A stretch of 64,000 nt of DNA from an uncultured Bdellovibrionales bacterium (GTDB lineage Bacteria; Bdellovibrionota; Bdellovibrionia; Bdellovibrionales; UBA1609): positions 54,700-118,699 of the forward strand of contig CALLAU010000020.1 in NCBI GenBank assembly GCA_938002015.1, given 5' to 3'. The translations under genes and the position numbers were made by a program. A model generated the notes under the pieces. It searched no databases. It saw nothing but the letters and a program-made list of their open reading frames with translations, and was not told the DNA's origin. Of this stretch, positions 7,289-59,793 are shown piece after piece. Numbering within the stretch: position 1 is the first letter of the stretch; the number at the start of each line of letters is the position of its first letter.

Positions 7289-7315
7289 AAGCGTGTGTAA
7301 TTATTTAACACGCTT
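7289..7315. terminator. Hairpin between convergent pepN and kinase genes (bidirectional terminator candidate)
   Basis: AAGCGTGT (7289-7296) pairs with ACACGCTT (7308-7315), an 8-bp perfect stem followed by a T-rich run. It overlaps the last codons of the kinase gene. Confidence 0.5.
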
Positions 7316-14067: not shown

Positions 14068-17000
14068 ATGCATACATTAAAAAAATACTTACTATTTTTT
14101 GCATTATTAATTTTATCTGGCTGTTTAACTCAAACAAAAACAGAAGATAAGCTTTCAAAAATTGGTGCTCAAAGCTGCTTAAGTGCAACAGCAGTAGCTT
14201 ATGACGGTGTTATGATTACAATTGATATACCAGATGAAGCTGTTAGATTTATGATTAAAAGAGATGGTGTTCCAATACTTGAAACATCAGATAAAGAAAT
14301 CACTACAAAAATTGATACAGGACTTTTAAAAGGCCAAACCTATAGATATACATGCGCAGCAATTTTAGATGTAAACCAAGGCTTTAGAGACCTTGGTCAA
14401 GAGCTTGTTGTTAATCTTGAGTCTGATACTCCTCCAATTTTTGGTGGTATAACTGACGCTACTCCAGAGGGAGCAAACTCTATTAGAGTTTCATGGGACT
14501 TAGCTTCAGATGAAGTTATTTCACATTATAAAGTGTATAAATACATTGGTATAGCTTCTAATAAAAGCCAGTTTTCAAACTCAGTTGCAGCAACTATTTA
14601 TGATCTATCACTGTCTAGCTTTTTATTAGAAGGGCTTGGAGATCAACTAGATTACTCTTTTAGAGTAGTTGCTTGTAACACGTCTGATATTTGTGATGAT
14701 AATGATGCCATTGAATCTGCAATACTTGCAGATACAGGTGCTCCTTTAACTACAGGTATTTCTGATATAGGCATTATAAATGGTGAAGTAAGACTAACGG
14801 CTCCTTGGGATGATTCAAAAGGTTTAGTTTCAAAAAGAACAGTTTATAGGCTTGAAACAACAACTGGAGCAACTTGCCCAACTACAATTGGTTCTTATTC
14901 ACCAAATGATATTAATGTAGCTATTCCAAGAGATACGCCAGTATCTTTTAACGCACCAGGAAGTATTAATGAAGGTGTTAGGTATTGTTATATCGTAAGA
15001 GATACAGATTCTCTTGCTCAACAAGAAACAAATACAAACATTCGTTTTATTGATGTAGGAGATTTAACACCTCCTGTGTTTAATACCTCATTTAATCTTG
15101 TAAGAGATGTATCTTTTCCTGAAAATCGTTTATTAGCTAACTGGATTGCTATAGAAAATGAAAGTGAAAACGCTCTTGCTGGAGCAAATGAGTATGTTAT
15201 TTATATAAGCTCTTCAATACCTCCTGCTCAACCAGACTCTGACCCTTGTAGTACTGGTAGTCAGTATGGAGCTCCAATTTCAGCTATGTCATTTCCTCAA
15301 GGAATGAATATATCAATTCCAATAAGTGGTTTAAGTAGAAGAAATAACCACAGGGTATGTATTAGGGCAAAAGACTCTTCAGGAAACTTTGCTACAAATG
15401 AACCTAAGTCTTTTCAATCTACAGGTGATGTAACACCACCGCTTTTTAATGGTATTGATAATGTTGTATTTAATGGACTAACTAATAATATTGATGTGAA
15501 CTTTATTGTGCCAAATGATTCTGATGTAAAGAATTATCTAATTAAAATTAGTAGAAATAGAAGTGGAACAGTGACTCAGTTATCAGATATTCCAGTTATT
15601 ATAGGTGTACAGCAGCCAGGGTCAGTTTATACTTATAGTTTAACTCAGGCTCAGGCTAGTGCTCAAAGTGATGATGTACTGACTGTGAGAGTGGATTCTT
15701 GTGATGATGCAAATCCAACTTATAATACAAGTGATAATTGTACAGCTACAAGTGTAAGCAGGAATGTTTTAATTCCGGATTCTGAACCTCCAGCAGGTTT
15801 TCAGTTTATCACATATACTGTTGCTCCAGGTAGTGCAGAAAGCTCTGTTATTGTTAATTGGAGTTCTCCGCCAAGCTGGGATGATTATGCAGGCTTTAAA
15901 CTTCACTATGTTGATGGTGGTGGAAACCTTGTAAATTTAGATAGTTCAGATTGTGTTTGTAATGGCTTAGACTGTAGTTCATCTCCTAAAAACTCATGTG
16001 AAGTTTTTAGAACAGATGGTGCTGTTTTTCTAGACCCGTCAAGACAGTATGAGTTTTATTTAAGTGCTTATGATACAGATGGTTTTTCTACTCAACAATA
16101 TATTGATTACACTGGTGGAAGTAAAAAAACTGCATTTGCGAGAACTAGGGATAAGACAAAACCTACATTTAACGCTGACTTCACGCATGAGATTAATAAT
16201 GGAGTAATTATAAGTTTTTCTCCTGCTACTGATAATCAGTACTCAGGTGCTCCAGATAACCATCAACTTACATATCAAATTTATAGAAAAGAAGATACAG
16301 CGTATAGCTTTCCTTGCCTAACTGGGGATTCTCAAGATCCTGAGTGTGACGGAGCATCGTTACTTATTAGCACACAAACTGAAAGTCAGCTTAGTTTTAG
16401 TAACGGTAAATTTTCATTTACAGATACTAATATTGATGATGGTAAAACATATTTTTATCAAGTTTGTGCATTTGACTTTGCTTACTCTGACTCATCAAAC
16501 CCTTTTAATGGTGATGATTCTACTAATAGACAGTGTCAAACTGGAAGTATTGCTCAAGTGTCTGTAACTGATACCACTCCTCCAACGGCTGATAATGTTC
16601 ATTCAAATAAAAGGGTAGACAGAACTTACTGGACAGTGACATTTGATGTCGGTGATAACAGTCCTTTAGATCAACTTAGTGTAAAAATATACAGAAGTAG
16701 TGTTGATTATCCAGATGAAATGAGCCCCGGCACTCCTTTATATACTTCTCCTACTAGTGTTACAGTGGATTCAATGACTGGTGTAACAAGTTTTGATGAT
16801 ACTGGAGCAGGAGGCCCTGCGGAGTATTATTATTTAGCTGAAGTGAGTGATGCTGCTAATAATAAAGTTTTTATTGAATTCAGAGACATGCTTCCTCCAC
16901 CAATTATAACAGGAGTTTCTTTTATTGGAGGACCATTACCAAACGGAGAGACCCCTCCAACAGTTCTTGAGGCGTCAACTTCTAAACCCGCGCCTAATCA

Positions 17001-47138: not shown

Positions 47139-47195
47139 AGAAATAATATGAATTTAAAGAATGATAAAGAAAACAAAACGATTGGGGAAAAAAAG

Positions 47196-50100
47196 ATGAG
47201 AAAAATAACTAACTTAGCATTTGCTTTAAGCTTTTTGCTTTTTTTAGGTGGTTGTGTAGATAGCCATAAAGAAAGGCTTGATCAAATCACTCAGGGGTCA
47301 GAAGAGTCATTTTTTGATATCTCAGAAATTAAAGGTATGTATATGGTCACAAACAACCAAGTTGGTTGTAAGACAGTGCCGCTAGAAGGAAAAACTACAA
47401 CTGTTAGTGAGCCTGGAAAGGAAACTATAGTAGTTGAAGAAAGCGGTGGTAATATCACAGAATGTTTAACACCTGCGGCAGTTGCTTTAAGTGAAGACAG
47501 ACCTGTTGTTAGTTTTCATAATGGAAATGGCCCGACTTCGAGCCCTTATACAATTCAAACAAGAGGTGTGATTAGATCTTTAGGTTTAAGTGCTGCAGAA
47601 AAACCTGTTGAAGTTGATGAAGGCTTAAGTATTAAACATACAAGTCTTGTTAAGTTTAGAACAAATTCACCGTTTTTAGCTGCAGGACAGGAGAAAGTTA
47701 ACCTCCCAGGGGATCCAGCAACTTCATATAAAGTTTTACATAAACTTACTCCTCAGCATCTTATTATTATGAGGGTTTCTTCAAAAGAAATGATGGCTCA
47801 TAGAGAATACACTATGGCTGATAATTTAGGAAATGGAGAGTATGCATACCCAATTGCTTACTACAATATTTCTTACTTTAGAAAAGAAAACATCTTAAAC
47901 GCTGATAATGAGAAAACAAACTTGCAGACTTTTGTTCCAGTTGATTCAGTTGATAAAGCAACTCATATTAAATTGAATTTAGAGTCAGGCCTGACTGATA
48001 TGGCTTTGAATAGAAAGCTTAAGAAAGATTTCTATCCAGCTAAATATTTCTTAGGTAGTGAGTGGTATGTTTCTGAATCAGTTGTTGATACAAGGCCAGG
48101 TCTTGAAGGACTTATTGGTACTTCTACGGGCTCATTTGACCTAGATTTTAGATCAGCATCAAAGATCACTTTCTTTAGAACTGATGAAAAGCTTGTTGGT
48201 TATAATATTGGAGTAGATGAAAGAGTTGATATTGACCCTTCAAAACTTTCTCCAGTTGTCGAAATCCCTGCTGAAGGCTTGGCATTTGAGTTGAGTGCTG
48301 ATGGCATTTCTGAAGTTGATGTTAATGCTATTGATAAAACGAAAACTCCGCTCCTTGCAATGAACTTTGAAGAAACGAGTACTTTAAAGAAAAGAATATC
48401 AGATATCGTAAGCTTTACTTTAGGTGCAACTAAAGGTGAATTGATTGACTTAAAGTTTGCTAAAGACAGTTTTTCTTATACTTTGCAAGATGGTGCTACA
48501 GGGAGGCAGGTAAAGTATTCTTTCTTAAGAGCTGACAACAGACCAGAGTATACTGAAAGAAGACATTATGCAGGAGATAGAAATACTTTTGGTTTCTTTG
48601 TTCAAAGAAAAGCTAAGATTATTACAAGTGATGAAAACCATAGAGAAGAAGATATTGAAAAAGACTTCTTTATCCAAAGACATAATCCAAATGAAACAGT
48701 AAAATTTTACGTCAGTCACCTTACTCCTAAGTATGAAGAGACAAGAGTTAATGGCTCAAAAGACCAATTCGGAATGGACATTGATTATAGAGAAATTGCT
48801 AAAAAAGCGATTGATTACTGGGATGCTGCATTTAAAAGAGCTGGAGCTAAAGGTGTTGAATTAGTTGGTGGTAAAGAAAACTCTGCGCCTTATGGTGATA
48901 TAGCTTATAACACAATTAACCTTATTGAGTCTGAAACGGGTAGTAACTTACTTGGTGTAGGTCCATCACTTACTGATCCCTTCACTGGTGAAGTTATTAA
49001 TACAAACTCAAATGTTTATATTGCTCCATTTAGATCAATATTAGCTAATGACATTAGAAATTATATCAAGTCTCAAACAGGTTACCTTGATTCTGTTGCT
49101 AAAAACCTTCCTCCAGAAGGAAAAGTAAACAGTTCTATCTTAGGTGATTTAGTAGGTTCAGGAACAAATGTTCAAGCTTTCTTAGAAAACATTTTACCTA
49201 AGAGACTTTGGAATGTTGTTGCTGGTTTATACCATCATAGCTATGAAGGTATTGGTTTTGATCCTGAGTTAACAGAGTCTCCAACTCTTAATGGATATGA
49301 GGCTATTAATTTATATGGACTTAATAAATTTGATCCTAAAAACTCTCAAATTCAGAGGCTTATAAAAGTTGCTCAAAGAATTCCTGAAGTTGCAGCTTTA
49401 GAAGCTTCAGGGGATGTGACTTTTGATATTAGAAACAGGTCTGATCTTTCTTACCTTGCTTCTCAAGTTGAGTTTTACAGGCCTGCTTTTTATAGATCTT
49501 ACTTCATGACTGAAGATAGAAAAATATCGCAGTATAACTCTTTAAATAGAGATATTGAAAATAAGTGTGAGATGGTAAGTGAGCTTATTAACAGAATTAA
49601 TAATAAAGATATAACAGAGCTTACAACTGAAATTGAAGCCTCGGCACTTCAGTCTTGTATGTCTAAATTGATTCCTGAAAAATTTATGGCTACTTTAGTA
49701 CATGAACTAGGACACAGTTTAGGTTTAAGACATAACTTTAAAGGATCATCTGATAAAAAGAACTTCTTTAATAAAGAAGAGGTTAAAGAGCTTTACGGTT
49801 TAGAAATGAATGACTTAGATCTTCCAAGAAGTTCATCTACTATGGACTATGTAAGGTCTGAGCAAGATAGATTATTCTTTCCAGGTCACTATGATATTGC
49901 AGCGATTAGATACGGTTACACGAATGAAGTTGAACTTAAGTCAAACCAAGAAAGACCAAATACGCTTGGTGGTAAGTACTTAGATATATCTGAGAATATG
50001 GACCTTAAGGCTGATGGTGGTATTGCAACAATCGTGAGTAATTCAGGCGAAACCTTAAGAGACTTTGGTTTTTGTACAGATGCTAAGGCTTCACTTGGTA

Positions 50101-52049
50101 TAGATCCAATGTGTGCAAGACATGATTTTGGAACAAGTCCAGAAGAGTCAGTTAATGATATCATAAATTCTTACTGGGAAAACTTTGCTCTATGGAGTTT
50201 TAGATATGATAGAAGAAGAGCGGGTGTTACGGGTCCTTTAAGAAGAGCTGGTAATCTTGATAACTTAAAGAAAATGTATGATGAGTGGAGATTTCACTTA
50301 GCTGACTACCTTGGTTCAAAAGATTCTGTAAGTAGTGCATATCTTGAAAGGTTCTCTCCTGAAGAATACTCTGAACTTGTTACTGAGCTTTCAAATGACC
50401 CTAACTTTAAAGGTGCTGAGTACTTAAAGGTAAGAAGAAAAATCTTTGATTTCCTAATGGAAGTTACTTTCTTTCCAAACAAATACTGCTTAGCTAATGG
50501 TGAGTTTGGTTTAAAAGCTTTAGAGTTTGAAAAACTTAGAGATGAACTTAAAAACCAAGTTCCAGTTGGAACAAAAGTTACTCAGTGTTCTGATGATTAT
50601 ATTCAAGAGATCATTGCTAAGAAAGGTTTTGCATATATTTCTGAAGTTGGACTTCCAGTAAATAACATGTGGGATTATGTGAACCCTGCAGATACTTTTG
50701 ATCCAAACTTTGCTGATGATACAAGGGGTTTAAGAAGACCTATTGATACTGTTGGTACTTTTGTGGATAGGTTCTTAGCTTCAGGAACGCTGACTTCTAG
50801 ATCATCAGGTTTTGGTTATAAACATTTCTTAGAAAAAGTTTTTCCAAATATCTTAGATGAGCCAGACCTATTCTTAGAGTATGAGCAAAAAGTACTTGAA
50901 AGAGTGATTCAAGGTGTTGATTTAACATCAGTAATATCGAGAGTAGAAGGGATTGAGTTTCCAGCTGATCAAAAAATTCAAGCTGTAAACTATGAAGCTG
51001 AGTCAGGTTTCTTAAAAGCACTTTGGTTATCTCTTGAAAGAGGAATAGGGAATCCGTTTGTAAATACAACTGCTAGACAAGAAAGATATGCTAGATTTAT
51101 TTCTGATGACTTAGATCAAATCGAAAACGCTCAAGAAAACGGTGGCTTCGTTCTTCCTATTGCTAGTGGTGGTAGAGCTTTAATAGTTCCTGGTGATGCT
51201 GAAGTATCACAGGCTTTAGCTCAAAAACTTATTGAGATTAATCAACAGATTTCAGCTGCAAACACAGTTGTTCCAAGTGATGAAGAAGTTCTTGGAAGTT
51301 TACCTCAAGTTCTTGCTTTCATGTCTGAAGGTTTAGGTGACTCTACTGAAATTACTGGAGAGCAGTACCTAGACTTTGCAAGAAGGTTCATAGCTGTTCT
51401 TGGTCAAGTTGATCCGTTTCAAGGTGCTATACTTCAAGACCTTTTCTTAGGTGACCTTGTTCTCTACCTTGTTCACTTAAGAAGCGCTGATGAAGCTATT
51501 CAACAAGCTCAAGCACAAGGTGTAGAACCTCCTGCTGGAGCGATTGAGTTTATTAACTCAACTCTTGCAAGCTGGAATGAAAAAGGTTTAAGCGTTGTTG
51601 CTGAAGAAACTCAAGCAGCTGTGGGCGCTCAACTTCCTCCAGGTGTAGTTACAAGTGTTCCAACGACGAATGCTTTATCAATCACCCTAGTTCAAAAAGG
51701 ACCAGCTTCAGCGAAAACAGCACTTGATCCGATTAGAGAGCAAGTGGCATTAGCTAAAGCTCAGTTTGAGCAAAACGAAGAAGACATTTTTGCTCAATTT
51801 GATTTAATCAGATCAATATTAATTTTTGACACTCAAGAAGCTGCTCAACAATTTGTTGCTCAACTTTCTGAGCTTTTTAGTGATAACGGGGAAGACTCTG
51901 TTTCTCACTATAAGAGAATTTCAAAATCTACTAGAGCTGATGTTAGATTCTATGCTGATAAGTACTTAAAACCTTCGGTTGTTCTTAATAAGTATCTAGA
52001 ACTTGAAAACAAGTTCGATGCTGTTAAGCCTTTAGCTAGAAAGTTTTAA
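47196..52049 (+). CDS. Giant zinc metalloprotease lipoprotein (Met-zincin, DUF4953-like catalytic core)
   Basis: The track ORF starts at 47148. ATG 47196 gives MRKITNLAFALSFLLFLGGC, which contains a lipobox. The zincin motif VHELGHSLGLRHNF lies at nt 49698-49739 and is followed by SSTMDYV, a Met-turn-like segment. The C-terminal ~400 aa are rich in Q, A and E. Confidence 0.85.
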   Translation: MRKITNLAFALSFLLFLGGCVDSHKERLDQITQGSEESFFDISEIKGMYMVTNNQVGCKTVPLEGKTTTVSEPGKETIVVEESGGNITECLTPAAVALSEDRPVVSFHNGNGPTSSPYTIQTRGVIRSLGLSAAEKPVEVDEGLSIKHTSLVKFRTNSPFLAAGQEKVNLPGDPATSYKVLHKLTPQHLIIMRVSSKEMMAHREYTMADNLGNGEYAYPIAYYNISYFRKENILNADNEKTNLQTFVPVDSVDKATHIKLNLESGLTDMALNRKLKKDFYPAKYFLGSEWYVSESVVDTRPGLEGLIGTSTGSFDLDFRSASKITFFRTDEKLVGYNIGVDERVDIDPSKLSPVVEIPAEGLAFELSADGISEVDVNAIDKTKTPLLAMNFEETSTLKKRISDIVSFTLGATKGELIDLKFAKDSFSYTLQDGATGRQVKYSFLRADNRPEYTERRHYAGDRNTFGFFVQRKAKIITSDENHREEDIEKDFFIQRHNPNETVKFYVSHLTPKYEETRVNGSKDQFGMDIDYREIAKKAIDYWDAAFKRAGAKGVELVGGKENSAPYGDIAYNTINLIESETGSNLLGVGPSLTDPFTGEVINTNSNVYIAPFRSILANDIRNYIKSQTGYLDSVAKNLPPEGKVNSSILGDLVGSGTNVQAFLENILPKRLWNVVAGLYHHSYEGIGFDPELTESPTLNGYEAINLYGLNKFDPKNSQIQRLIKVAQRIPEVAALEASGDVTFDIRNRSDLSYLASQVEFYRPAFYRSYFMTEDRKISQYNSLNRDIENKCEMVSELINRINNKDITELTTEIEASALQSCMSKLIPEKFMATLVHELGHSLGLRHNFKGSSDKKNFFNKEEVKELYGLEMNDLDLPRSSSTMDYVRSEQDRLFFPGHYDIAAIRYGYTNEVELKSNQERPNTLGGKYLDISENMDLKADGGIATIVSNSGETLRDFGFCTDAKASLGIDPMCARHDFGTSPEESVNDIINSYWENFALWSFRYDRRRAGVTGPLRRAGNLDNLKKMYDEWRFHLADYLGSKDSVSSAYLERFSPEEYSELVTELSNDPNFKGAEYLKVRRKIFDFLMEVTFFPNKYCLANGEFGLKALEFEKLRDELKNQVPVGTKVTQCSDDYIQEIIAKKGFAYISEVGLPVNNMWDYVNPADTFDPNFADDTRGLRRPIDTVGTFVDRFLASGTLTSRSSGFGYKHFLEKVFPNILDEPDLFLEYEQKVLERVIQGVDLTSVISRVEGIEFPADQKIQAVNYEAESGFLKALWLSLERGIGNPFVNTTARQERYARFISDDLDQIENAQENGGFVLPIASGGRALIVPGDAEVSQALAQKLIEINQQISAANTVVPSDEEVLGSLPQVLAFMSEGLGDSTEITGEQYLDFARRFIAVLGQVDPFQGAILQDLFLGDLVLYLVHLRSADEAIQQAQAQGVEPPAGAIEFINSTLASWNEKGLSVVAEETQAAVGAQLPPGVVTSVPTTNALSITLVQKGPASAKTALDPIREQVALAKAQFEQNEEDIFAQFDLIRSILIFDTQEAAQQFVAQLSELFSDNGEDSVSHYKRISKSTRADVRFYADKYLKPSVVLNKYLELENKFDAVKPLARKF

Positions 52050-52812: not shown

Positions 52813-54864
52813 TTAGAATTTATAGGCTATATTGATGCCAAAATGAGCTTTTGGGCCACTTTGAGTGTAAAGCTTTGGTTGCCAAGTGGGTGGCTCATTA
52901 GCAAAATAAAAGCCTCTTAGAGCGTATTCTTTGTTAAGAATATTTTTACCCCAAAACCTCATTTTAAGCTTTTTATTTAATTTATAATCTAAGTAAATAT
53001 CAAGTAATTGATAGGGCTTAGACTTTTGATTATGAGCATTTGAAAAATAGAAGCCATCTTTTCCATGAATTATAGAAGCTAGATTTAAGTTCTTATTAAG
53101 TGTTAATTTTGATTCTATTGAGAAGGTGTATAAAGGAGAGTGTGCCTGGTCTCTGCCCTTGTAATTAAGGTCTTCTCGGGTGTATTCATTAAATTTTGCT
53201 TTTAAAAGTCCAATTGAAGCATGTATATCTAAGAGTCTATTTTTAAAAATAGAGGAATCTATTTCAATTCCATAATTTTGAGATTTTGCAGCATTGTCTG
53301 TATATATATAAAAACTACTCGGATCTAGAGGGTCATCTTGAAAAGAAGTTTTTACTTGTTGATTTCTTCTCTTTAAAAAGAAAATGTTTACTCTTGTATT
53401 TAAGTTACTTAAAAGCCAAGTGGCTTCATATTGGTAAAGATTTTCTGCATCAAAACTTTGCTTTTTTTCTTCTAAATTTATATCTGCGTTAAATCCACCA
53501 GCCTTATATCCTTTTGCAAAGCTTAGTGAGATTTCATGATTTAAGTTTAGTTTGTGTTTTATGTTTAGATTTAGGCCATAGTTTAATTCGAGCATTTTAG
53601 AGTTGAAATTTTTAGATGTTTTAAAGCCAAGGTTAATTCTTTCAATTCTAGAATTTAATGAAACCTTTGTTGCTTTAAATTCTTTACTCATTCCAAAGAG
53701 TAAAGAACTGTTTTTTTGTTTAAAATCTGTTCGGTTTTGATCTCTTAAAGTATTATCTTTAAAAGATTTAATATTGCTTTTTTCTTCTTGATTGAAGAAA
53801 TGCAGCCCGCCAGTAATTGTGAGATTTCTTTTTAAAGACTTTTGATAAGTAATTTTTTGATGAAACCTGTTGTTTGTCCTCTTATATGATTTGTTATAGT
53901 TATAATCAGAGTTCCATCCAGGGATGTTATTCCAGTACGCATTGTTTCCCCAATCTTCATCGTAAGAGTATAGGCTTTTGTTTAAAGCATGAGAACTTAT
54001 AAAGCTAAGAGTTTGTGAATCTCCAAGTTTATAATTTAGTTCAACAGAGTTTCCAAAAAGCCTTAGATCATCCTTTCCAGGTTTATCAGAAATAGTCTTA
54101 AAACTATGTTGAGTAAAGTTCCAAACATCATAGCCATTATCTTGGTTAAAATACATATGACTGGTTGCTAAGTTTACTTTCTTATTTTGATAAAGGTATC
54201 TTAAACTAATTGAATCTTCGTTTTGATAATTCGTACTTTTGCTTAAGTAAGTGTTTTTAATATAGTGATCACTCTTAGTTTTTCTTAAATCTATTGAAAC
54301 TGCTGAATTTAAATTTAAAGGAATTGAAAAAGATGTGTTTAAATCCCTAGTGTTAAAGCTTGATAGGTTCATATTTAAACTGGTGTTTTTTTCAATAAGA
54401 TCAGGCTCCTTTGATTTAAAAATAATATTACCAGCAAGAGCACTGCTTCCATAAAAAGAGGACATGGGACCTTTATAAACATTTATACTTTGAGTAGCAT
54501 TTGAGTTAACAGCATTTGGCGTGCCACTTAGATCTATATGATTTAAGAAGACTCCAACAGAGGTATTTGGTGTGTTATCATACTGACTTCTCTCTCCAAT
54601 TCCTCTGATTTGAATAAAGCGAGCTCTATTAGTTCCTCCTGCTGTATTTAAATTAGATATATGATTCCAAATTTCTTCAATATGATTTGTGTTTTTTGAA
54701 TCAAGATCTTTAAAGTTAATAAATTCATGAGGGTTGATATTTATGAAGCTATAAGGATAGGGGTTCTCATAGTAAACGGTGATTCTTTCTTTTGGGGTAG
54801 GTTTTGTTGTTTGGGCGTGAGAACTCATTAAAGAGGCTATTATAAACAGTAAATAAAGCTGCAT
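52813..54864 (-). CDS. TonB-dependent outer-membrane receptor, TPP-riboswitch controlled (probable thiamine or thiamine-precursor uptake)
   Basis: Signal peptide present. Plug-domain motifs are RFIQIRGIG and NVYKGPMSSFYGSSALAGNI. A long beta-barrel ends in ...NIAYKF. A THI-box lies immediately upstream. Confidence 0.9.
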   Translation of the reverse strand: MQLYLLFIIASLMSSHAQTTKPTPKERITVYYENPYPYSFININPHEFINFKDLDSKNTNHIEEIWNHISNLNTAGGTNRARFIQIRGIGERSQYDNTPNTSVGVFLNHIDLSGTPNAVNSNATQSINVYKGPMSSFYGSSALAGNIIFKSKEPDLIEKNTSLNMNLSSFNTRDLNTSFSIPLNLNSAVSIDLRKTKSDHYIKNTYLSKSTNYQNEDSISLRYLYQNKKVNLATSHMYFNQDNGYDVWNFTQHSFKTISDKPGKDDLRLFGNSVELNYKLGDSQTLSFISSHALNKSLYSYDEDWGNNAYWNNIPGWNSDYNYNKSYKRTNNRFHQKITYQKSLKRNLTITGGLHFFNQEEKSNIKSFKDNTLRDQNRTDFKQKNSSLLFGMSKEFKATKVSLNSRIERINLGFKTSKNFNSKMLELNYGLNLNIKHKLNLNHEISLSFAKGYKAGGFNADINLEEKKQSFDAENLYQYEATWLLSNLNTRVNIFFLKRRNQQVKTSFQDDPLDPSSFYIYTDNAAKSQNYGIEIDSSIFKNRLLDIHASIGLLKAKFNEYTREDLNYKGRDQAHSPLYTFSIESKLTLNKNLNLASIIHGKDGFYFSNAHNQKSKPYQLLDIYLDYKLNKKLKMRFWGKNILNKEYALRGFYFANEPPTWQPKLYTQSGPKAHFGINIAYKF

Positions 54865-54867
54865 GGC

Positions 54868-54978
54868 TTGCTCCTATTCCTACGCTAGTTTTAACTAGAT
54901 CAGGTTCGAAGGGATCCATGTATTTCAAGTTTAACACGATCTCAGGCCCTTTATAAAATTTGAGCCACCCCTTAGGTT
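54868..54978 (-). promoter_or_regulatory. TPP (THI-box) riboswitch
   Basis: Minus-strand RNA: CCUAAGGGGUGGCUC...GGGCCUGAGAUCGUG...GGAUCCCUUCGAACCUGAUCUAGUUAAAACUAGCGUAGGAAUAGGAGCAAGCCAUG. It contains the conserved GGGGUG, CUGAGA and ACCUGAUCU(N)nGCGUAGG elements in canonical order. AAGGG/CCCUU and CUAG/CUAG pairings are possible. The SD (AGGAG) directly follows the aptamer. Confidence 0.85.
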
Positions 54979-55131
54979 TTTTTAATTTGTATTTAAATCC
55001 ATCCAATGTTTTGAGTAATTATTCAAGGTGTTTTAGGTTATTGCTTTGCGACATAGGCTTATTGTTTAAGGAGTTTTATTTCTAACATTTTTAGATGATT
55101 AAAACTGTTTTGGTGAGCTATTTGTCTTAAT

Positions 55132-55893
55132 TTAATAAGAATTAATTTGATCAAGTATTAAATCACGCCGGAATAAAATTTCACGGATTTGTTCTACATT
55201 AAGTTCTGGCACTGCATTTAAAAGCGTATTTTCATCAAATGAAGATATTTTTCTTAAGAAGTTTTGAGCGAGGTGGTTTGTTGTTAAAAATTTTATAGCT
55301 CTTAAAGATAGTTTATTACGCCTGAAAAAACCTGGAAAAGCTAAGCCGTGATCGATTAAATAAATCCTACCAAATTTGCCAATGAGGTAGTTTGGTTTTG
55401 TCCTATCTTGATTTGAAATGAGAAAATCAAAAACCTCCATAAATAGTAAATCACTCTTTTTTGCTCTATGCCAAAGGCGAGGCCAGTTAGCATCCCAGAG
55501 GTTTTTATAAACTTGAAGGGAGCCTTCTTCATATTTACCTTGGTGATAAACTGCTCTTTTGACAGTTTTTAGTACAAAGCCAAGCTCTAGAAATTCACTA
55601 AATTGGTAAGCTGCAATTTCAGCATCACTGGCAGAAGATTTACTTGGAAAAAACCGACCAGGTCGATTAGATGTTGAGTCAGGTTTAAAAACAGCTTGAG
55701 ATTTATCTTGAAAAGTTACAAGCAAAGGTTTGCTTAACCCTTTTCCAAGAGGCTTAATTTTAATAATTTTTTGAAAAAGAAGTGAGTCATCTACACCAAG
55801 AACACTATGGCAGTTTGAAGAAGCTGAAGTGTTAAGTGAAAAAATCACTAGTATTAAAATAGTTAAAGTATTAAGAAAAGCTGTCTTCATCAC
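55132..55893 (-). CDS. Secreted minimal type II phosphatidylinositol-4-kinase-like (PI3/PI4-kinase superfamily) protein
   Basis: Signal peptide MMKTAFLNTLTILILVIFSLNTSAS. QAVFKP, FLISNQDRTKPNYLI and IYLIDHGLAFP parallel IAVFKP, YIIRNTDRGNDNWLI and AAIDNGLAFP of human PI4K2A as I recall it. Confidence 0.6.
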   Translation of the reverse strand: MMKTAFLNTLTILILVIFSLNTSASSNCHSVLGVDDSLLFQKIIKIKPLGKGLSKPLLVTFQDKSQAVFKPDSTSNRPGRFFPSKSSASDAEIAAYQFSEFLELGFVLKTVKRAVYHQGKYEEGSLQVYKNLWDANWPRLWHRAKKSDLLFMEVFDFLISNQDRTKPNYLIGKFGRIYLIDHGLAFPGFFRRNKLSLRAIKFLTTNHLAQNFLRKISSFDENTLLNAVPELNVEQIREILFRRDLILDQINSY

Positions 55894-56017
55894 TTAAAAG
55901 AGCCTGCAAGTTTTGTGCTTGCCTAGAACTAATTTAACGGCAGAAACCCTATTTTATGAGAACTAAAGAATGACCTAAATTGTCACTGAAGTGGGTTTAA
56001 GGTCATAATTAAGTGAC

Positions 56018-57472
56018 CTAACCTCTTCTCCAAGTGTGAAATTTTCTTAAGAACTTTAAAAGACCTTCAGGCTTATTCTTATTTTTCCAAGTGCTTGCAG
56101 CAAATTTATTTCCTTCACCCATCGTTGGGTAGGGGTGGATAGTTCCCATGATTTTATTTAAACCAAAACCGTGTTTCATAGCTGCAGTGTATTCTAAAAG
56201 CATGTCACTTGCATTCTGTCCAACAATGGTTGCTCCTAAAATTTTATCTCTTCCTCCAGGAGGAGTAAGTACTTTAACAAAGCCTTTAATAGCAGAGTCT
56301 GCAATAGCCCTATCAAGGTCATCAAGGTGGTAGGTGGTGGTTTCATATTTAATGTTAGCTTCTTTAGCGCTTTCTTCAGTATGCCCAACATGTGCCACTT
56401 CTGGATCTGTAAAAGTTGCCCATGGTATAACAGAGTAGTCAGCTTTTTTCTTATAAGGGGAAAATAGAGAATTTACAGATACAAACCATGCTTGATGACT
56501 TGCTGTGTGTGTGAACTGATAAGGACCTGCTACGTCTCCACAAGCGTATATATTCTTATATTTTATGGTTCTTAAGTAGGGATCTGTTTTAACAGTTCCA
56601 TTTTTATTTAATTCAACACCGAGTTCTTTTAAACCAAACCCTTCGGTATTGGGGCGTCTTCCCATTGCAAGAAGACAAACATCAAATTCAATTTCTGAGG
56701 TTGAACCATCTTCGTTTTCAGTAATGAGTACTTGTTTTTCACCTTCTCTTTTAAATTCTTTAGCACTTGCTCCAAACTTAATATCAATACTTTCTTCTTT
56801 AAAGGTTTGCTCAATCACCTCTGAAACTTCAGGGTCTTCTTTGCCCATGAGTTTTTTAGCTTTATCAACAATTGTAACTTTCGAGCCAAATCTTGCAAAA
56901 CACTGAGCTATTTCACAACCAATCGGCCCTCCTCCTAAAACTAAAAATTTCTTAGGTAGGGTTTCTAAGTTCCATAAATTATCAGAAGTAACATAATTTA
57001 CATCTTCTAAGCCTTTAAAGGGAATCACAAGTGGCCTTGCTCCAGTTGCAATAACAATATTTTTTGTAGTTAAGACTTTATTATTAACTTCAATGTGCCA
57101 TGGAGACTTAATTTGAGCTTCTCCTGTGATGCACTCTACACCAAGATTAGTGTAGCGCTCAATAGAGTCATGCGGTTCAATATCTTTAATGACTGACTGA
57201 ACTCTATTCATAACTTCTTTAAAATCAAAGTCTACATCCATTTTTTTTATGCCATACTTACTTGAGTTTTTTGCAATATGCATAGCTTTAGCACTTTTAA
57301 TAAGAGCTTTACTTGGAACACAGCCAGTGTTTAAACAGTCGCCTCCCATTTTATGTTTTTCAATTAAAGCAACTTTAGCATTAACAACTGCTCCAATATA
57401 TGAAGTGACAAGTCCAGCTGAACCGGCGCCAATTACGATAAGGTTATAATCAAAATTTTTAGGTTTTCTCAT
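56018..57472 (-). CDS. Class I pyridine nucleotide-disulfide oxidoreductase (mercuric reductase / dihydrolipoamide dehydrogenase-like)
   Basis: FAD motif VIGAGSAGLV, redox-active GGDCLNTGCVPSK, NAD motif VLGGGPIGCE, and the C-terminal dimerisation motif HPYPTMGE. Confidence 0.9.
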   Translation of the reverse strand: MRKPKNFDYNLIVIGAGSAGLVTSYIGAVVNAKVALIEKHKMGGDCLNTGCVPSKALIKSAKAMHIAKNSSKYGIKKMDVDFDFKEVMNRVQSVIKDIEPHDSIERYTNLGVECITGEAQIKSPWHIEVNNKVLTTKNIVIATGARPLVIPFKGLEDVNYVTSDNLWNLETLPKKFLVLGGGPIGCEIAQCFARFGSKVTIVDKAKKLMGKEDPEVSEVIEQTFKEESIDIKFGASAKEFKREGEKQVLITENEDGSTSEIEFDVCLLAMGRRPNTEGFGLKELGVELNKNGTVKTDPYLRTIKYKNIYACGDVAGPYQFTHTASHQAWFVSVNSLFSPYKKKADYSVIPWATFTDPEVAHVGHTEESAKEANIKYETTTYHLDDLDRAIADSAIKGFVKVLTPPGGRDKILGATIVGQNASDMLLEYTAAMKHGFGLNKIMGTIHPYPTMGEGNKFAASTWKNKNKPEGLLKFLRKFHTWRRG

Positions 57473-57478: not shown

Positions 57479-58153
57479 TTAAGCTCGCTTTTCTTTGATT
57501 TTTTTAATGATAAGTTTTGCTAGAATAGGAAATGTGCCAAGCAATACAAAAGATAAAATAAGTTTTGGAGATAGTATTCCTGATAGAGAGTTAAGCTCAC
57601 TTAAGCTTGTTCCAGCATTTACATAAACTATAGTGCCAGGAAGCATTCCAAGTTGACTGGCCACATAAAAAGTTAAGGTCTTAATTGGTGTTAAACCCAT
57701 AACAAGGTTAACTACAAAAAAAGGAAAAGCAGGAATAAGTCTTAGAGTAAAAAGATAAAAGCCTCCATCCTCTTTAAAGCCCTTATTAAAGCTTTCAAGT
57801 TTAGCACTAAACTTTGATTGAATACTTTCTTTAAATAAAAACCTTGAAACTAAAAAAGCCAGAGTTGCGCCTATTGTACTTGAGAATGAAGCGATGATAA
57901 CACCTATAAAGAGACCAAAAATAGCTCCAGAAAGTAGTGTTAAAAGAGCTGCGCCAGGCAGAGAAAGAGCTGTTGTTGCAATATAAAGAATAGAAAAGCC
58001 AAGAACTGAGATGAGATAATTGCTTTGAGTAAAGGCCTGAATTTTTGATTGCTGGGCTTTGATAGACTCAAAGGTTAAGAGATCAAAGAGACCTAAATAA
58101 TAAAAGATCCCAACAAGTGTGCAAATACTTATAATAATTATACTTTTTTTCAT
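57479..58153 (-). CDS. TVP38/TMEM64 (DedA-related) family membrane protein
   Basis: It is a multi-pass membrane protein with ...GAIFG...RLIPAFPFFVVNLVMG, typical of the SNARE-associated/TVP38 family. Its stop lies 6 nt upstream of the oxidoreductase start, a known conserved pairing. The start is moved to Met48 (58153), and Met25 (58222) is also possible. Confidence 0.8.
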   Translation of the reverse strand: MKKSIIIISICTLVGIFYYLGLFDLLTFESIKAQQSKIQAFTQSNYLISVLGFSILYIATTALSLPGAALLTLLSGAIFGLFIGVIIASFSSTIGATLAFLVSRFLFKESIQSKFSAKLESFNKGFKEDGGFYLFTLRLIPAFPFFVVNLVMGLTPIKTLTFYVASQLGMLPGTIVYVNAGTSLSELNSLSGILSPKLILSFVLLGTFPILAKLIIKKIKEKRA

Positions 58154-58333
58154 TTGTACTATCGTTTCTTGATTGCTCTGACTTGTCAAAGTAAGTGAGA
58201 GTCCTTGTATATTGCGTCTCATAATGAAACCAATTTGCAATTGACTGGACTTACACTTACACTTAGAGTAGTTTAAGAAAATGTGAACTGACATCTCTTA
58301 TCAAGTTAAGAGCTTATAAAGGTAGGAAAACTA

Positions 58334-59248
58334 ATGAGAAATATGCCCGATATAGCACAGGATGCTAGCATATCACTTCAAAAGAAAATTGACTGGGTCG
58401 GCATGTCTGCAGTTGAGGGAAGTTTAAAAATTGATAACCAAAGCGTACCTACACAAATAGATGTGTATGTGAGTTTAGCTGATGAAAAGTCAAAAGGCAT
58501 TCATATGTCTAGGCTTTATTTAGCTGTAGCTGATGAGTTAAAATCTGAAAACTTAGATCAAAAAGTATTGTCAGACCTGCTTGTAAGATTAATTGAAGAG
58601 CAGCAAGGCATTAGCGATAAAGCAAGCCTAAGTCTTAACTTTGATCTTTCGATGATGAGAAAAGCATTAGTGAGTCAAACTCAAGGAGAAAGACATTACC
58701 CTGTAAAAGTTAAAGCAATGGCTGTTAAAAATGGAGCTGGTGATTATAGTTTTGATTTTGAAATTGGAATAAAAGTTCTTTACTCAAGCACTTGCCCTTG
58801 CTCAGCGGCTCTTTCTAGACAACTTATTGAAGCTAAGTGGAAAGATTTTAGTGAGGGACAAAAGAACGTATCAGTAGAAGATGTTTCTACTTGGTTAAGA
58901 CAAGAGTCCTCTATGGTGGCTACTCCACATGCTCAAAGAAGTGAGGCGCATGTTAAGTTTTTAACTAGAGAGTTTAACTCAAGTTTAATTAAAGATTTTA
59001 TTGTTAAGCTTGAAGAAGGCGTTTTAAAAACACCTGTTCAAACTGCTGTTAAAAGAGAAGATGAGCAAGAGTTTGCAAGGCTTAACGGAACTAACCTTAT
59101 GTTCTGTGAAGATGCAGCAAGACGTGTAGCAAATTGGTTAGATGATGAAGCTTTAGTAAGTGGTTACTGGGCTAGAATGGAGCATAGAGAAAGTTTACAT
59201 GCACACAATGCAGTAAGTGAAATTTCAAATAACTGGAGGAGTCAGTAA
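58334..59248 (+). CDS. folE2: GTP cyclohydrolase I type 2 (FolE2, zinc-independent)
   Basis: KGIHMSRLY, YSSTCPCSA and FCEDAARR match FolE2/MptA family signatures. Confidence 0.9.
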   Translation: MRNMPDIAQDASISLQKKIDWVGMSAVEGSLKIDNQSVPTQIDVYVSLADEKSKGIHMSRLYLAVADELKSENLDQKVLSDLLVRLIEEQQGISDKASLSLNFDLSMMRKALVSQTQGERHYPVKVKAMAVKNGAGDYSFDFEIGIKVLYSSTCPCSAALSRQLIEAKWKDFSEGQKNVSVEDVSTWLRQESSMVATPHAQRSEAHVKFLTREFNSSLIKDFIVKLEEGVLKTPVQTAVKREDEQEFARLNGTNLMFCEDAARRVANWLDDEALVSGYWARMEHRESLHAHNAVSEISNNWRSQ

Positions 59249-59793
59249 TGGATTATTTAACTCAATCAAGTCAATCGCAGCAACCTGTAGAAGAACAGCT
59301 TCCTTCTTTAGTTAGAGGTGAGCAGAATCCTAAAGAAGAGCTTGTTAATCGTGAAAGATTAGACTCAAAAAGCTTTAAGCGAATTATTAGAGAAATGGGC
59401 CTTAAAGTTACTAAGCAAAGAATGGCTATTTTAGAGGGTTTAAGTTCTGGTAGAGCCCACGTTACAGCTCAAGAAGTTTATGAACTTGTAAATCAAAAGC
59501 ATCCAGAAATCGGTTTTGCCACTGTATATCGTTTTTTAAGAAAAATGACAGAGCAAAAATTTGTAACTGAAGTGAGAATGGGAGGGCTGCCTGCTAGGTA
59601 TGAGCTGACTCCAAACCATCACCATGACCATTTAACTTGTGTTGAATGTGGTAAAATTGTTGAATTTGAGAATGATGAGATTGAAAAGCTTCAGATTGCA
59701 ACAGCTGATAAGTATGGCTTTAAATTAACAAATCACGTACTAGAACTTTATGGTGTTTGTAATAACCCTGAGTGTCGAAGTGCTCACGAATAG
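59248..59793 (+). CDS. Fur-family metalloregulator, probably Zur
   Basis: Winged-helix KVTKQRMAILEGL...ATVYRFL, a metal site HHHDHLTCVECGK, and a C-terminal CNNPEC. The start overlaps the folE2 stop (TAATG). There is a ~45-aa N-terminal extension. Confidence 0.85.
   Translation: MDYLTQSSQSQQPVEEQLPSLVRGEQNPKEELVNRERLDSKSFKRIIREMGLKVTKQRMAILEGLSSGRAHVTAQEVYELVNQKHPEIGFATVYRFLRKMTEQKFVTEVRMGGLPARYELTPNHHHDHLTCVECGKIVEFENDEIEKLQIATADKYGFKLTNHVLELYGVCNNPECRSAHE

What the first reader, a model, noticed from the sequence alone, without database searches (positions are those of the whole stretch)
55132..55893. Signal-peptide-bearing, minimal (253 aa) type II PI4-kinase-like protein
Catalytic landmarks of the eukaryotic PI4K type II branch are present in order. 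QAVFKP carries the ATP-lysine strand (compare IAVFKP). SLQVYKN parallels GSFQLFVEGY. FLISNQDRTKPNYLI is the catalytic loop (compare IRNTDRGNDNWLI). IYLIDHGLAFP is the DFG-equivalent (compare AAIDNGLAFP). The protein has a typical Sec signal peptide and little beyond the kinase core. Typical Gram-negative prey are not expected to contain phosphatidylinositol. A periplasmic or secreted PI4K-II-like enzyme therefore implies either a non-PI substrate (lipid A, sugar, protein or small molecule) or an activity deployed outside the producer. It is an obvious candidate effector or envelope-modifying kinase with no described counterpart that I know of.
Basis: partly seen in the sequence, partly recalled or inferred. 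Interest (0 to 1): 0.65.

Follow-up and report, generated by a model that had tools for sequence, protein, structure and literature searches.

The report
Exported Fam20/PI4KII-like minimal bacterial kinase
A bacterium from the predatory phylum Bdellovibrionota encodes a small kinase with an export signal that is related equally to animal secreted kinases (Fam20) and type II PI 4-kinases; it belongs to a large, unstudied bacterial family that appears to phosphorylate targets outside the cytoplasm.

Summary
The ORF is real: 55132-55890, minus strand, 252 aa from the ATG. The single sequence gives only sub-threshold Pfam hits. However, 608 representative proteins match it by phmmer.

A profile of 89 family members hits solved FAM20 kinases (E 2e-19) and PI4K type II (E 1e-17). 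An AlphaFold model (pLDDT 88) has PI4K2A and Fam20C as tied best structural matches (E 7e-9). The catalytic Lys, Glu, Asp/Asn loop and DHG Asp are intact. The N-terminus looks like a cleavable Sec signal peptide.

The PI4KII-like call is therefore right but too narrow:
- Its nearest relatives are closer to Fam20 (2e-11) than to PI4KII (3e-5).
- The closest curated family is the bacterial SCO1664 family.

Most stand-alone relatives also carry signal peptides or lipoboxes. The same domain also occurs in phage, eCIS and toxin-like giant proteins.

In one Aminicenantes-like clade, several paralogs sit in an operon with an NTP/NDP-exchange (TLC) transporter and an exported PPP phosphatase. This suggests periplasmic ATP-dependent phosphorylation. 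The window has no such partners. Substrate and target compartment remain unknown.

The parts
55132..55890 (-). CDS of the kinase-like protein. It is 252 aa from ATG 55890, with an alternative GTG start at 55893 and a TAA stop at 55132-55134.
   Evidence: ORF list and sequence. The identical 252-aa product is called on public contigs. AF2 model has pLDDT 88.4 and pTM 0.82.
55819..55890 (-). Predicted Sec signal peptide, aa 1-24 (MKTAFLNTLTILILVIFSLNTSAS), followed by SNC with the only cysteine (C27).
   Evidence: Hydropathy and the -3/-1 rule. AF2 shows an N-terminal helix at 3-18, then a low-confidence linker at 25-32. About half to 88% of stand-alone relatives have comparable N-termini.
55717..55746 (-). 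Gly-rich nucleotide loop, GKGLSKPLLV (aa 49-58).
   Evidence: Family consensus is LGxGxxxxxxV. It aligns to the Fam20C GGTQLKLI segment.
55681..55698 (-). Beta-3 strand QAVFKP carrying the ATP-binding Lys69.
   Evidence: K69 is nearly invariant in 89 sequences. It aligns to Fam20C QALFKP.
55606..55623 (-). Alpha-C helix AEIAAY carrying Glu91, the ion-pair partner of Lys69.
   Evidence: E91 and A94 are nearly invariant. The segment aligns to Fam20 AEIAAF.
55507..55524 (-). Hinge / adenine-binding strand GSLQVY (G123, S124, Q126).
   Evidence: G123 and Q126 are nearly invariant. The PI4K2A/B profile match starts here, at profile positions 119-172.
55381..55425 (-). Catalytic loop FLISNQDRTKPNYLI (D155 lies just before it; N160, D162, R163, N167).
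   Evidence: N167 is invariant; D155, N160, D162 and R163 are at least 90% conserved. The loop matches the PI3_PI4_kinase, Fam20C and HipA_2 Pfam models in this region.
55333..55365 (-). IYLIDHGLAFP, the DFG-equivalent metal-binding Asp180 (family motif IDHG).
   Evidence: I179 and D180 are nearly invariant. The segment aligns to Fam20 DNG/DHG.
55135..55305 (-). C-terminal four-helix subdomain (aa 196-252), a reduced C-lobe.
   Evidence: AF2 predicts helices 196-204, 206-217, 220-226 and 232-251 at pLDDT above 90. The profile aligns this region to the Fam20A/C C-lobe.

Best explanation
The gene encodes a Sec-exported, catalytically competent minimal kinase of about 26 kDa after cleavage, with pI about 9.7. 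It belongs to an unnamed bacterial family in the PI3/PI4-kinase-like superfamily. That family is homologous to both the eukaryotic Fam20 secretory-pathway kinases and type II PI 4-kinases, and its nearest curated relative is the actinobacterial SCO1664 family.

Proposed mechanism:
1. The signal peptide takes the unfolded protein across the inner membrane.
2. The folded enzyme binds ATP-Mg using Lys69-Glu91, the GSLQ hinge, Asn167 and Asp180.
3. Asp162 acts as the base that transfers the gamma-phosphate to a hydroxyl group on a substrate located outside the producer's cytoplasm.

The most likely acceptor is a protein side chain or a glycan, as for Fam20C and Fam20B, rather than phosphatidylinositol. 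The site of action is either the cell's own envelope or the prey-facing compartment of this Bdellovibrionota organism.

Shown: gene, motifs, homology, fold, and the family-wide habit of export signals.
Inferred: signal-peptide cleavage, ATP use, substrate class and site of action.
For: - Homology and fold: there are 608 phmmer hits. The family profile matches FAM20 at 2e-19 and PI4K2 at 1e-17, against Vps34 at only 1e-3. The AF2 model has pLDDT 88.4. Foldseek gives PI4K2A and Fam20C tied at 7e-9, with query-normalised TM-score 0.57-0.64.
- Active site: K69, E91, G123/Q126, D155, N160, D162, R163, N167 and D180 are invariant or at least 90% conserved, and all are present here.
- Export: the N-terminus looks like a signal peptide. 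By the same heuristic, 44 of 88 short phmmer hits and 95 of 108 profile hits have signal peptides, and several nearest relatives have lipoboxes.
- Protein or glycan rather than lipid: the profile of the window protein plus its three nearest relatives hits FAM20C/A/B at 2e-11 to 6e-10, but PI4K2 only at 2.7e-5 to 2.9e-4. There is no PI4KII Cys-rich insert.
- Sister clade: kinase paralogs are in an operon with an exported PPP phosphatase. That phosphatase carries GDxHG/GDxxDRG/GNHE motifs and is closest to the Shewanella protein-tyrosine phosphatase 1v73 (E 2e-36). The operon also holds an NTP/NDP-exchange transporter.
- Organism: the best named hits for its CysRS are Bdellovibrionaceae and Bdellovibrionales MAGs. 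Relatives of the kinase occur in Bacteriovoracaceae, Bdellovibrionales and Bdellovibrio MAGs.
Against: - On its own the protein fails every curated threshold: PF00454 15.6 bits against 27.1, Fam20C 14.9 against 26.8, and TIGR03843 42.7 against 172.4.
- No signal-peptide predictor was available, so an uncleaved anchor cannot be excluded.
- The periplasm normally lacks ATP, and the 64-kb window holds no TLC transporter or PPP phosphatase.
- The nearest relatives share no conserved gene neighbours, so context gives no substrate clue.
- The protein is at most about 37% identical to anything known and about equally distant from all subgroups. Transferring function from the Aminicenantes clade is therefore weak.
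- The catalytic loop has DRT instead of the family's DRH.
Confidence: 0.55

Rival explanations
1. Prey-directed toxin or effector. After Sec export the kinase is released (by type II secretion, vesicles or at the invasion pore) into prey. There it uses prey ATP to phosphorylate an essential cytoplasmic or envelope target, as HipA and the phage T7 kinase do.
For: - The same domain sits in conflict-system proteins. One is eCIS cargo with an eCIS_core domain (P0032). Another is fused to an ADP-ribosyltransferase exotoxin domain (P0121). A third is a giant protein combining GDPD, a hydrolase and a glutamine deamidase toxin with three kinase copies (P0021).
- Phage head-morphogenesis, portal and ART fusion proteins are structural matches.
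- PHROG 3162 matches 84 of 89 relatives.
- A Bacteriovoracaceae MAG encodes a 1156-aa protein with this domain at its C-terminus.
- The host is a Bdellovibrionota lineage.
- The protein is orphan-like and fast-diverging, and its genomic context varies.
- ATP would be available in prey.
Against: - A Sec signal alone only reaches the periplasm.
- No immunity gene or secretion-system gene lies adjacent.
- Exported stand-alone relatives are abundant in non-predatory phyla, and some are lipoproteins, which points to the producer's own envelope.
- Injected versions of the domain lack signal peptides.
Confidence: 0.2
2. True lipid kinase of the PI4K type II kind. It phosphorylates a membrane lipid head group, either phosphatidylinositol of a eukaryotic or actinobacterial target or another hydroxyl-bearing lipid or lipid A.
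For: - PF00454 is the Pfam family most relatives match, 74 of 89.
- PI4K2A 4hnd has the highest query-normalised TM-score, 0.64.
- The GSLQ hinge and the NxDRxxxN and IDxG motifs parallel PI4KII.
- The mature protein is very basic (pI 9.66), and the segment after the DHG motif, PGFFRRNKL, is rich in basic and aromatic residues, which suits anionic membranes.
- One giant relative also carries GDPD and lipase-like domains.
Against: - The nearest-relative profile prefers Fam20 over PI4K2 by about six orders of magnitude.
- PI4K2 profile matches cover only the hinge-to-catalytic-loop stretch, whereas Fam20 matches cover both lobes.
- The palmitoylation insert is absent, with only one Cys. The reduced C-lobe and target-normalised TM-score of only 0.46-0.49 suggest the extra C-lobe elements are absent too.
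- The segment after DHG is not conserved in the family.
- Gram-negative prey lack phosphatidylinositol (general knowledge).
Confidence: 0.12
3. Not exported. The N-terminal hydrophobic stretch is an uncleaved anchor holding a cytoplasm-facing kinase, which acts on a small molecule as proposed for the SCO1664 family linked to mycothiol and inositol metabolism.
For: - TIGR03843 is the best curated model hit (E 4e-11) and matches all 89 relatives.
- SCO1664 genes are invariably linked to mshC (PMC4255298).
- The hydrophobic core is fairly long, about 17 residues.
- This location would solve the ATP-supply problem.
Against: - There is only one positive charge before the hydrophobic core. By the positive-inside rule, that weakly favours an N-in orientation with the rest of the protein outside, for a signal peptide and a signal anchor alike.
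- A small-residue cleavage motif is present.
- Relatives have canonical AxA sites or lipoboxes.
- The score is far below the TIGR03843 cutoff, and the organism is not an actinobacterium.
Confidence: 0.08
4. A kinase fold used for another chemistry (AMPylation as in SelO, glutamylation as in SidJ), or a non-catalytic pseudokinase or ATP-binding scaffold.
For: - Atypical kinase folds are known to do this (SelO and SidJ are cited in PMC7948968).
- The family does contain paralogs with degenerate catalytic loops that keep K69, E91 and D180.
Against: The window protein keeps every canonical phosphotransfer residue in the normal arrangement.
Confidence: 0.05

Closest known systems
Fam20 secretory-pathway kinases (Fam20C Golgi casein kinase, Fam20B xylose kinase, Fam20A pseudokinase; PF06702)
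   Same: - They are exported through a secretory route.
- The N-lobe motifs correspond (QAxFKP, AEIAAF/Y, VPxT).
- The catalytic FDFLxxNxDR and D(N/H)G motifs correspond.
- The profile aligns over both lobes.
- Fam20C is a tied best structural match.
- In the sister bacterial clade an intact kinase is paired with a degenerate paralog, which recalls Fam20C/Fam20A.
   Different: - Fam20 proteins are about 150-200 aa larger.
- They are Cys-rich with conserved disulfides, carry insertion domains, and are found only in eukaryotes.
- The window protein has one Cys and a four-helix mini C-lobe.
- It scores below the Pfam threshold (14.9 against 26.8 bits).
Type II phosphatidylinositol 4-kinases (PI4K2A/B; PF00454)
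   Same: - The order and spacing of the VFKP, GS.Q.F, N.DR...N and ID.G.AFP motifs agree.
- PI4K2A is a joint top structural hit.
- PF00454 is the Pfam model that most relatives match.
   Different: - There is no CCPCC palmitoylation insert.
- The protein is much shorter.
- Profile matches are limited to the hinge and catalytic loop.
- The nearest-relative profile is much closer to Fam20.
- The protein is exported rather than attached to the cytosolic membrane face.
SCO1664 family (TIGR03843), actinobacterial PI3/4K-like proteins linked to mshC
   Same: - It is the best-scoring curated model for this protein and for all 89 relatives.
- It has the same minimal size; the model is 253 positions long.
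   Different: - The score is 42.7 bits against a 172.4-bit cutoff.
- SCO1664 proteins are an actinobacteria-specific signature family and their function is not established (PMC4255298). That they are cytoplasmic is general knowledge and was not checked here.
- The window protein is exported and from Bdellovibrionota.
Kinase domains of phage and conjugative-element polyvalent proteins (Iyer et al. 2017, PMC5512222), and PI3K/PI4K-domain phage proteins
   Same: - Both are truncated kinase cores with intact catalytic residues.
- Both have a conserved Gln in the last N-lobe strand (compare Q126).
- The domain occurs in phage, eCIS and ART fusion proteins.
- PHROG 3162 matches 84 of 89 relatives.
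   Different: - Identity between the 2017 family and this one could not be checked, because their alignment was not available.
- Those domains are injected cargo without signal peptides, whereas this protein is a stand-alone Sec substrate.
HipA-type toxin kinases (PF07804, PF20613)
   Same: They belong to the same superfamily, and there is a weak match over the catalytic loop.
   Different: - There is no HipA N-terminal domain and no HipB-like neighbour.
- A signal peptide is present.
- The match is below threshold, and at family level it is weaker than PF00454.

Membership tests
PI3_PI4_kinase superfamily (PF00454) | Sequence score at or above the Pfam gathering threshold (27.1 bits) | tested here: not met
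   The window protein scores 15.6 bits, E 0.016. However, 74 of 89 relatives match at E<=0.01, with a best E of 1.4e-13.
PI3_PI4_kinase superfamily (PF00454) | Kinase fold with a beta-3 Lys, a DRHxxN-type catalytic loop and a DFG-type Asp | tested here: met
   K69, the D162-R163-(T)-x-x-N167 loop and I179-D180-H-G are all present. Foldseek gives probability 1.0 to PI4K2A, Fam20C and Vps34.
Type II PI 4-kinase | Closer to PI4KII than to any other kinase family | tested here: not met
   With the broad profile, FAM20 scores 2e-19 and PI4K2 1e-17. With the nearest-relative profile, FAM20 scores 2e-11 and PI4K2 2.7e-5. The structural hits are tied.
Type II PI 4-kinase | Cys-rich palmitoylation insert (CCPCC) and the extended C-lobe of a roughly 350-aa catalytic domain | tested here: not met
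   There is a single Cys, at position 27. The mature protein is about 228 aa, and the target-normalised TM-score is only 0.46-0.49.
Type II PI 4-kinase | Phosphorylates phosphatidylinositol at the 4-OH | not testable with these tools
   This needs an in vitro lipid kinase assay.
Fam20 (PF06702) | Sequence score at or above the gathering threshold (26.8 bits) | tested here: not met
   The window protein scores 14.9 bits, E 0.021. 28 of 89 relatives match at E<=0.01.
Fam20 (PF06702) | N-lobe QAxFKP and AEIAAF motifs, plus catalytic FDFLxGNxDRH and DNG motifs | tested here: met
   phmmer alignments to 5yh0 and 5yh3 show QAVFKP against QALFKP, AEIAAY against AEIAAF and FDFLISNQDR against FDFLMGNMDR. 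The profile alignments agree.
Fam20 (PF06702) | Conserved disulfide network and insertion domain of the roughly 400-aa luminal kinase | tested here: not met
   There is one Cys. The target-normalised TM-score is 0.31-0.46.
Fam20 (PF06702) | Targeted to a secretory or extracytoplasmic compartment | tested here: inconclusive
   The N-terminus looks like a signal peptide by hydropathy and the -3/-1 rule only. No dedicated predictor or experiment was available.
SCO1664 family (TIGR03843) | Score at or above the equivalog cutoff (172.4 bits) | tested here: not met
   The window protein scores 42.7 bits, E 4e-11. All 89 relatives match but fall below the cutoff.
SCO1664 family (TIGR03843) | Actinobacterial, with genomic linkage to mshC | tested here: not met
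   The host is a Bdellovibrionota lineage. The neighbours are a disulfide oxidoreductase and a TPP-riboswitch TonB receptor. The linkage is described in PMC4255298.
HipA toxin kinases | HipA_C or HipA_2 score above threshold, a HipA N-terminal domain and a HipB-type antitoxin neighbour | tested here: not met
   HipA_2 scores 16.9 bits against a 27-bit threshold. There is no additional domain and no small HTH gene adjacent.

The most novel reading that the evidence does not exclude
This protein is one member of a large, unrecognised family of Sec-exported bacterial kinases. The family would be the prokaryotic sister, or source, of both the eukaryotic secretory-pathway kinases (Fam20) and type II PI 4-kinases. 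On this reading, bacteria carry out ATP-dependent phosphorylation outside the cytoplasm. In at least one clade this would be a complete periplasmic module: active kinases, a pseudokinase-like paralog, an NTP/NDP exchanger supplying ATP, and an exported PPP phosphatase. In predators the kinase might be turned against prey.
Probability: 0.3. Interest if true: 0.85.

Novelty: new variant of a known kind. Interest (0 to 1): 0.55.

Why it matters
Dedicated protein or glycan kinases in the bacterial periplasm or secretome are essentially undescribed, partly because that compartment is thought to lack ATP. A widespread exported family with an intact active site challenges that view, especially since one clade links it genetically to a nucleotide exchanger and an exported phosphatase.

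The family also offers a bacterial root for two medically important eukaryotic kinase families, Fam20C (Raine syndrome, biomineralisation) and PI4KII. At about 228 residues it is a minimal scaffold for studying their catalytic core. In a Bdellovibrionota organism it is also a candidate predation factor.

Tried and rejected
- Word-indexed homolog search with the single protein found only itself.
- A close-relative scan of 185,579 GTDB species genomes found nothing. Alignments A1 and A2 were too divergent for pattern scans. A 4-sequence alignment gave only 8 loci.
- HipA toxin-antitoxin reading: rejected. The score is sub-threshold, there is no HipB or N-terminal domain, and a signal peptide is present.
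- Link to thiamine through the adjacent TPP riboswitch and TonB receptor: rejected. The riboswitch lies downstream of the kinase gene and controls the receptor, and no relative shares this neighbourhood.
- Search for a TLC transporter, a PPP phosphatase or further kinase paralogs in the window: none found. The only weak profile hit (7301-8479) is an ordinary Hanks-type Ser/Thr kinase.
- Conserved gene context for the closest relatives: none.
- A neighbour-joining analysis did not place the protein in any subgroup; distances were 0.77-0.80 to everything.
- Literature searches for bacterial Fam20 or PI4KII homologs, periplasmic kinases, and SCO1664 function found no functional study.
- Horizontal transfer by composition: there is no GC anomaly.
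Full report
**Observation.** The minus strand carries an ORF from 55893 (GTG) or 55890 (ATG) to a TAA stop at 55132-55134. Public gene calls use the ATG and give a 252-aa product. This product is found on one 125-kb contig and one 29-kb Logan contig that is identical to the window. The N-terminus is MKTAFLNTLTILILVIFSLNTSAS|SNC. It has a basic start, a 17-residue hydrophobic core and a small-residue cleavage motif. No dedicated signal-peptide predictor was available, so export is a heuristic call. Gene GC (33%) matches the 34.5% of the window.

**Single-sequence searches are weak.** Pfam gives only sub-threshold hits over the catalytic loop: HipA_2 at E 0.004, PI3_PI4_kinase at 0.016 and Fam20C at 0.021. 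NCBIfam gives TIGR03843 (SCO1664 family) at E 4e-11, far below its cutoff. Against PDB sequences the best hits are Fam20C proteins (E 2e-4). Those alignments cover the N-lobe (QAVFKP against QALFKP; AEIAAY against AEIAAF) and the catalytic loop (FDFLISNQDR against FDFLMGNMDR). The word-indexed search of 5.8 billion proteins returned only the protein itself.

**Family-level evidence is strong.** Exhaustive phmmer against 1.84 billion representatives found 608 proteins at E<=1e-3 and 17 at E<=1e-10. None exceeds about 37% identity apart from isolated low-ranked hits of up to 43%. In an alignment of the window protein with 88 short relatives:
- N167 is invariant.
- K69, E91, A94, G123, Q126, D155, N160, D162, R163, I179 and D180 are at least 90% conserved.
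- The consensus is LGxG...AVFKP...ExAAY...VPPTV.R...GSLQ.F...FD.LI.N.DRH..N.L...IDHG..F.

This is a complete kinase active site, and the window protein keeps all of it. Its only departure is DRT for DRH.

Scanning the 89 members individually gave the following matches:

| Model | Members matching (of 89) | Best E |
|---|---|---|
| PF00454 (PI3_PI4_kinase) | 74 | 1.4e-13 |
| Fam20C | 28 | 6.8e-09 |
| HipA_2 | 28 | 3.7e-07 |
| TIGR03843 (SCO1664) | 89 | 4.4e-27 |

The family profile hits solved FAM20 structures at E 2e-19 to 1e-14, with alignments over both lobes. It hits PI4K2A/B at 1e-17 to 2e-15 and Vps34 or PI4KA only at about 1e-3. An AlphaFold2 model built on this alignment is confident (pLDDT 88.4, pTM 0.82). 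It shows an N-terminal helix, a five-strand N-lobe with an alpha-C helix, and a reduced four-helix C-lobe. Foldseek against the PDB puts PI4K2A (4hnd) and zebrafish Fam20C (5yh0) joint first at E 7.3e-9, with query-normalised TM-scores of 0.64 and 0.57. Other Fam20 and PI4K2 entries follow, then Vps34.

A profile of the window protein plus its three nearest relatives hits FAM20C/A/B at 2e-11 to 6e-10, and PI4K2B/A only at 2.7e-5 to 2.9e-4. The protein has a single cysteine, so it has neither the PI4KII CCPCC insert nor the Fam20 disulfide network. It is best described as a minimal bacterial member of the Fam20/PI4KII/SCO1664 branch of the PI3/PI4-kinase-like superfamily. It fails the formal membership threshold of each named family.

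**Who has it and in what form.** The window organism belongs to Bdellovibrionota. The best named hits for its cysteinyl-tRNA synthetase are Bdellovibrionaceae and Bdellovibrionales MAGs at 55-58% identity, with unnamed metagenomic hits up to 69%. A pattern scan of GTDB species genomes found relatives at 26-42% identity:
- Two Bacteriovoracaceae MAGs.
- One Bdellovibrionales MAG.
- Two Bdellovibrio MAGs.
- One unclassified bacterium MAG (L004).
- One Chloroflexota MAG and one Polyangiaceae MAG.

The scan is biased by the patterns used.

The family is much wider than predators. A profile search returned 170 proteins, mostly about 273-aa 'hypothetical proteins'; the few that carry an organism name are mostly Aminicenantes. 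By a hydropathy heuristic, 95 of 108 of these have signal peptides, as do 44 of 88 short phmmer hits. Several of the nearest relatives have lipoboxes.

The same domain also occurs without signal peptides, often in several copies, inside large conflict-system proteins:
- With an eCIS_core domain (P0032).
- With an ADP-ribosyltransferase exotoxin domain and DUF7178 (P0121).
- With GDPD, an alpha/beta hydrolase and a glutamine-deamidase toxin domain (P0021).
- At the C-terminus of a 1156-aa Bacteriovoracaceae protein.

Structural matches in BFVD are phage proteins labelled PI3K/PI4K domain, ADP-ribosyltransferase, Nudix, portal or head-morphogenesis fusions. PHROG 3162 (unknown function) matches 84 of 89 relatives. 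Iyer et al. 2017 described a truncated kinase domain in phage polyvalent proteins with a conserved Gln in the last N-lobe strand. It may be this domain, but I could not check that (PMC5512222).

**Context in the window.**
- Upstream on the same strand are a pyridine-nucleotide-disulfide oxidoreductase (56018-57472) and a DedA/VTT membrane protein (57479-58294).
- Downstream are a TPP riboswitch (54860-54982, 71.9 bits) and the TonB-dependent receptor it presumably controls (52813-54864).
- The riboswitch lies after the kinase gene.
- None of these neighbours recurs next to relatives, so I treat the gene as stand-alone.
- No immunity-like, secretion-system, TLC or phosphatase gene is nearby, and there is no second family member in the 64 kb.

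**A lead from related loci.** In the Aminicenantes-like clade the kinase gene lies in a tightly packed, apparently translationally coupled operon, in this order:
1. An exported Metallophos protein.
2. A roughly 250-aa gene.
3. A TLC-family transporter.
4. Zero to two further genes of 280-320 aa.
5. The kinase.

The A1 profile shows that all the 'unknown' genes are paralogs of the same kinase family, at E 1e-38 to 1e-60. The first paralog has lost D162, R163 and N167 while keeping K69, E91 and D180, so it looks like a pseudokinase. The transporter matches PF03219 TLC (E 2e-15), the TIGR00769 NTP/NDP-exchange superfamily (E 7e-16) and a solved ADP,ATP carrier (E 1.5e-4). The Metallophos protein has a signal peptide and the PPP motifs GDxHG, GDxxDRG and GNHE. 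It is closest to the Shewanella cold-active protein-tyrosine phosphatase (1v73/2z72, E 2e-36).

In a metagenome scan of this clade, 35 loci were at least 9 kb long. Of these, 30 carry the TLC gene, 25 carry the phosphatase, and all 35 have at least two kinase paralogs. Every locus with the full 8 kb upstream has both the TLC gene and the phosphatase. TLC proteins from different loci are only 42-68% identical, so the linkage is old. This looks like a self-contained periplasmic phosphorylation module with its own ATP supply and a protein-type phosphatase. It argues that exported members of the family work in the extracytoplasmic space on protein-like substrates. It is one lineage's synteny and is not found in the window, so it counts as supporting inference only.

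**Mechanism.** I consider it most likely (about 0.55) that the window protein is exported by Sec and folds into an active kinase. It would transfer phosphate from ATP, via D162 with Mg held by N167 and D180, to a protein or glycan hydroxyl outside the producer's cytoplasm. Whether that happens at the cell's own envelope or in or on prey cannot be decided.
- The toxin, phage and eCIS occurrences, the predatory lineage, the orphan-like divergence and the need for ATP all favour a prey-directed role.
- The abundance of exported and lipoprotein relatives in non-predators, and the Aminicenantes operon, favour an envelope role.

A genuine lipid-kinase activity, a cytoplasm-facing anchored enzyme, and non-kinase chemistry are less likely rivals.

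**Novelty.** I found no paper describing bacterial exported relatives of Fam20 or PI4KII. Fam20 reviews and the structure-and-evolution paper do not mention prokaryotic homologs. SCO1664 is known only as a signature gene linked to mshC. A Bdellovibrionota comparative-genomics paper does not mention such a kinase. Databases already label some relatives as PI3K/PI4K domain proteins. This is therefore a new, uncharacterised variant of a known fold rather than a new kind of thing.

**Limits.**
- No signal-peptide predictor was available.
- No biochemical evidence exists.
- Taxonomy rests on one marker protein.
- Pattern-based locus scans are biased.
- No explicit phylogeny with Fam20 or PI4KII sequences could be built.

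Noticed in passing
L010, L011, L014/L015, L016, L021-L100 (related loci, not the window): A conserved operon in Aminicenantes-like contigs. In order it holds an exported PPP/Shelph-type phosphatase, a pseudokinase-like paralog, a TLC NTP/NDP-exchange transporter and one to three intact exported kinase paralogs, with a convergent RsbW-like HATPase_c_2 gene after it. Of 35 loci at least 9 kb long, 30 have the TLC gene and 25 the phosphatase. This is a candidate periplasmic phosphorylation module with its own ATP supply.
   Followed up: yes
L014:2002-2754, L010:1804-2574, L011:1584-2336, L016:2250-3068: The kinase paralog next to the phosphatase has lost D162, R163 and N167 but keeps K69, E91 and D180. 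This recalls the Fam20A pseudokinase that activates Fam20C.
   Followed up: partly
window 54860-54982 (-) and 52813-54864 (-): A TPP riboswitch (Rfam RF00059, 71.9 bits) lies immediately upstream of a TonB-dependent receptor and overlaps its start. This is likely a thiamine- or precursor-regulated outer-membrane transporter, and it is not under common control with the kinase gene.
   Followed up: partly
window 55810-55812 (codon of Cys27): Cys27 is the only cysteine. It lies 3 residues after the predicted cleavage site and is nearly invariant among the 15 nearest relatives (motif C-x-x-hydrophobic). In some of them it coincides with a lipobox cysteine and in others it does not. Its role is unknown; it could be a lipid anchor, an intermolecular disulfide or something else.
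   Followed up: no
window 55906-55922 (-): A short terminator-like hairpin (5-bp stem followed by a T-run) lies 16 nt upstream of the kinase start codon. It is possibly the terminator of the upstream oxidoreductase gene. No sigma-70-like promoter was found for the kinase gene.
   Followed up: no
window 58334-59248 (+) and 59248-59793 (+): A FolE2-type GTP cyclohydrolase I is directly followed by a FUR-family regulator, with the stop and start codons overlapping. This arrangement is typical of zinc-responsive (Zur) regulons.
   Followed up: no
window 8815-13851, 14068-18909, 22525-26190, 47148-52049 (+): There are four very large ORFs of 1221-1678 aa. Two have only fn3 hits, one has no Pfam hit, and one has a DUF4953 Met-zincin domain. 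M1 and M23 peptidases, a penicillin amidase, an endonuclease/exonuclease/phosphatase protein and several alpha/beta hydrolases are also present. This is a hydrolase-rich region consistent with a predatory secretome.
   Followed up: partly
window 7301-8479 (-): An ordinary Hanks-type Ser/Thr protein kinase (Pkinase E 1e-29). It gave a weak cross-hit to the family profile (E 2e-4).
   Followed up: yes
L003:3121-6591; proteins P0046, P0121: DUF7178 recurs together with the kinase domain. It is found in a Bacteriovoracaceae 1156-aa protein and in a 1925-aa ADP-ribosyltransferase fusion, and may be a delivery or partner domain of these toxins.
   Followed up: no
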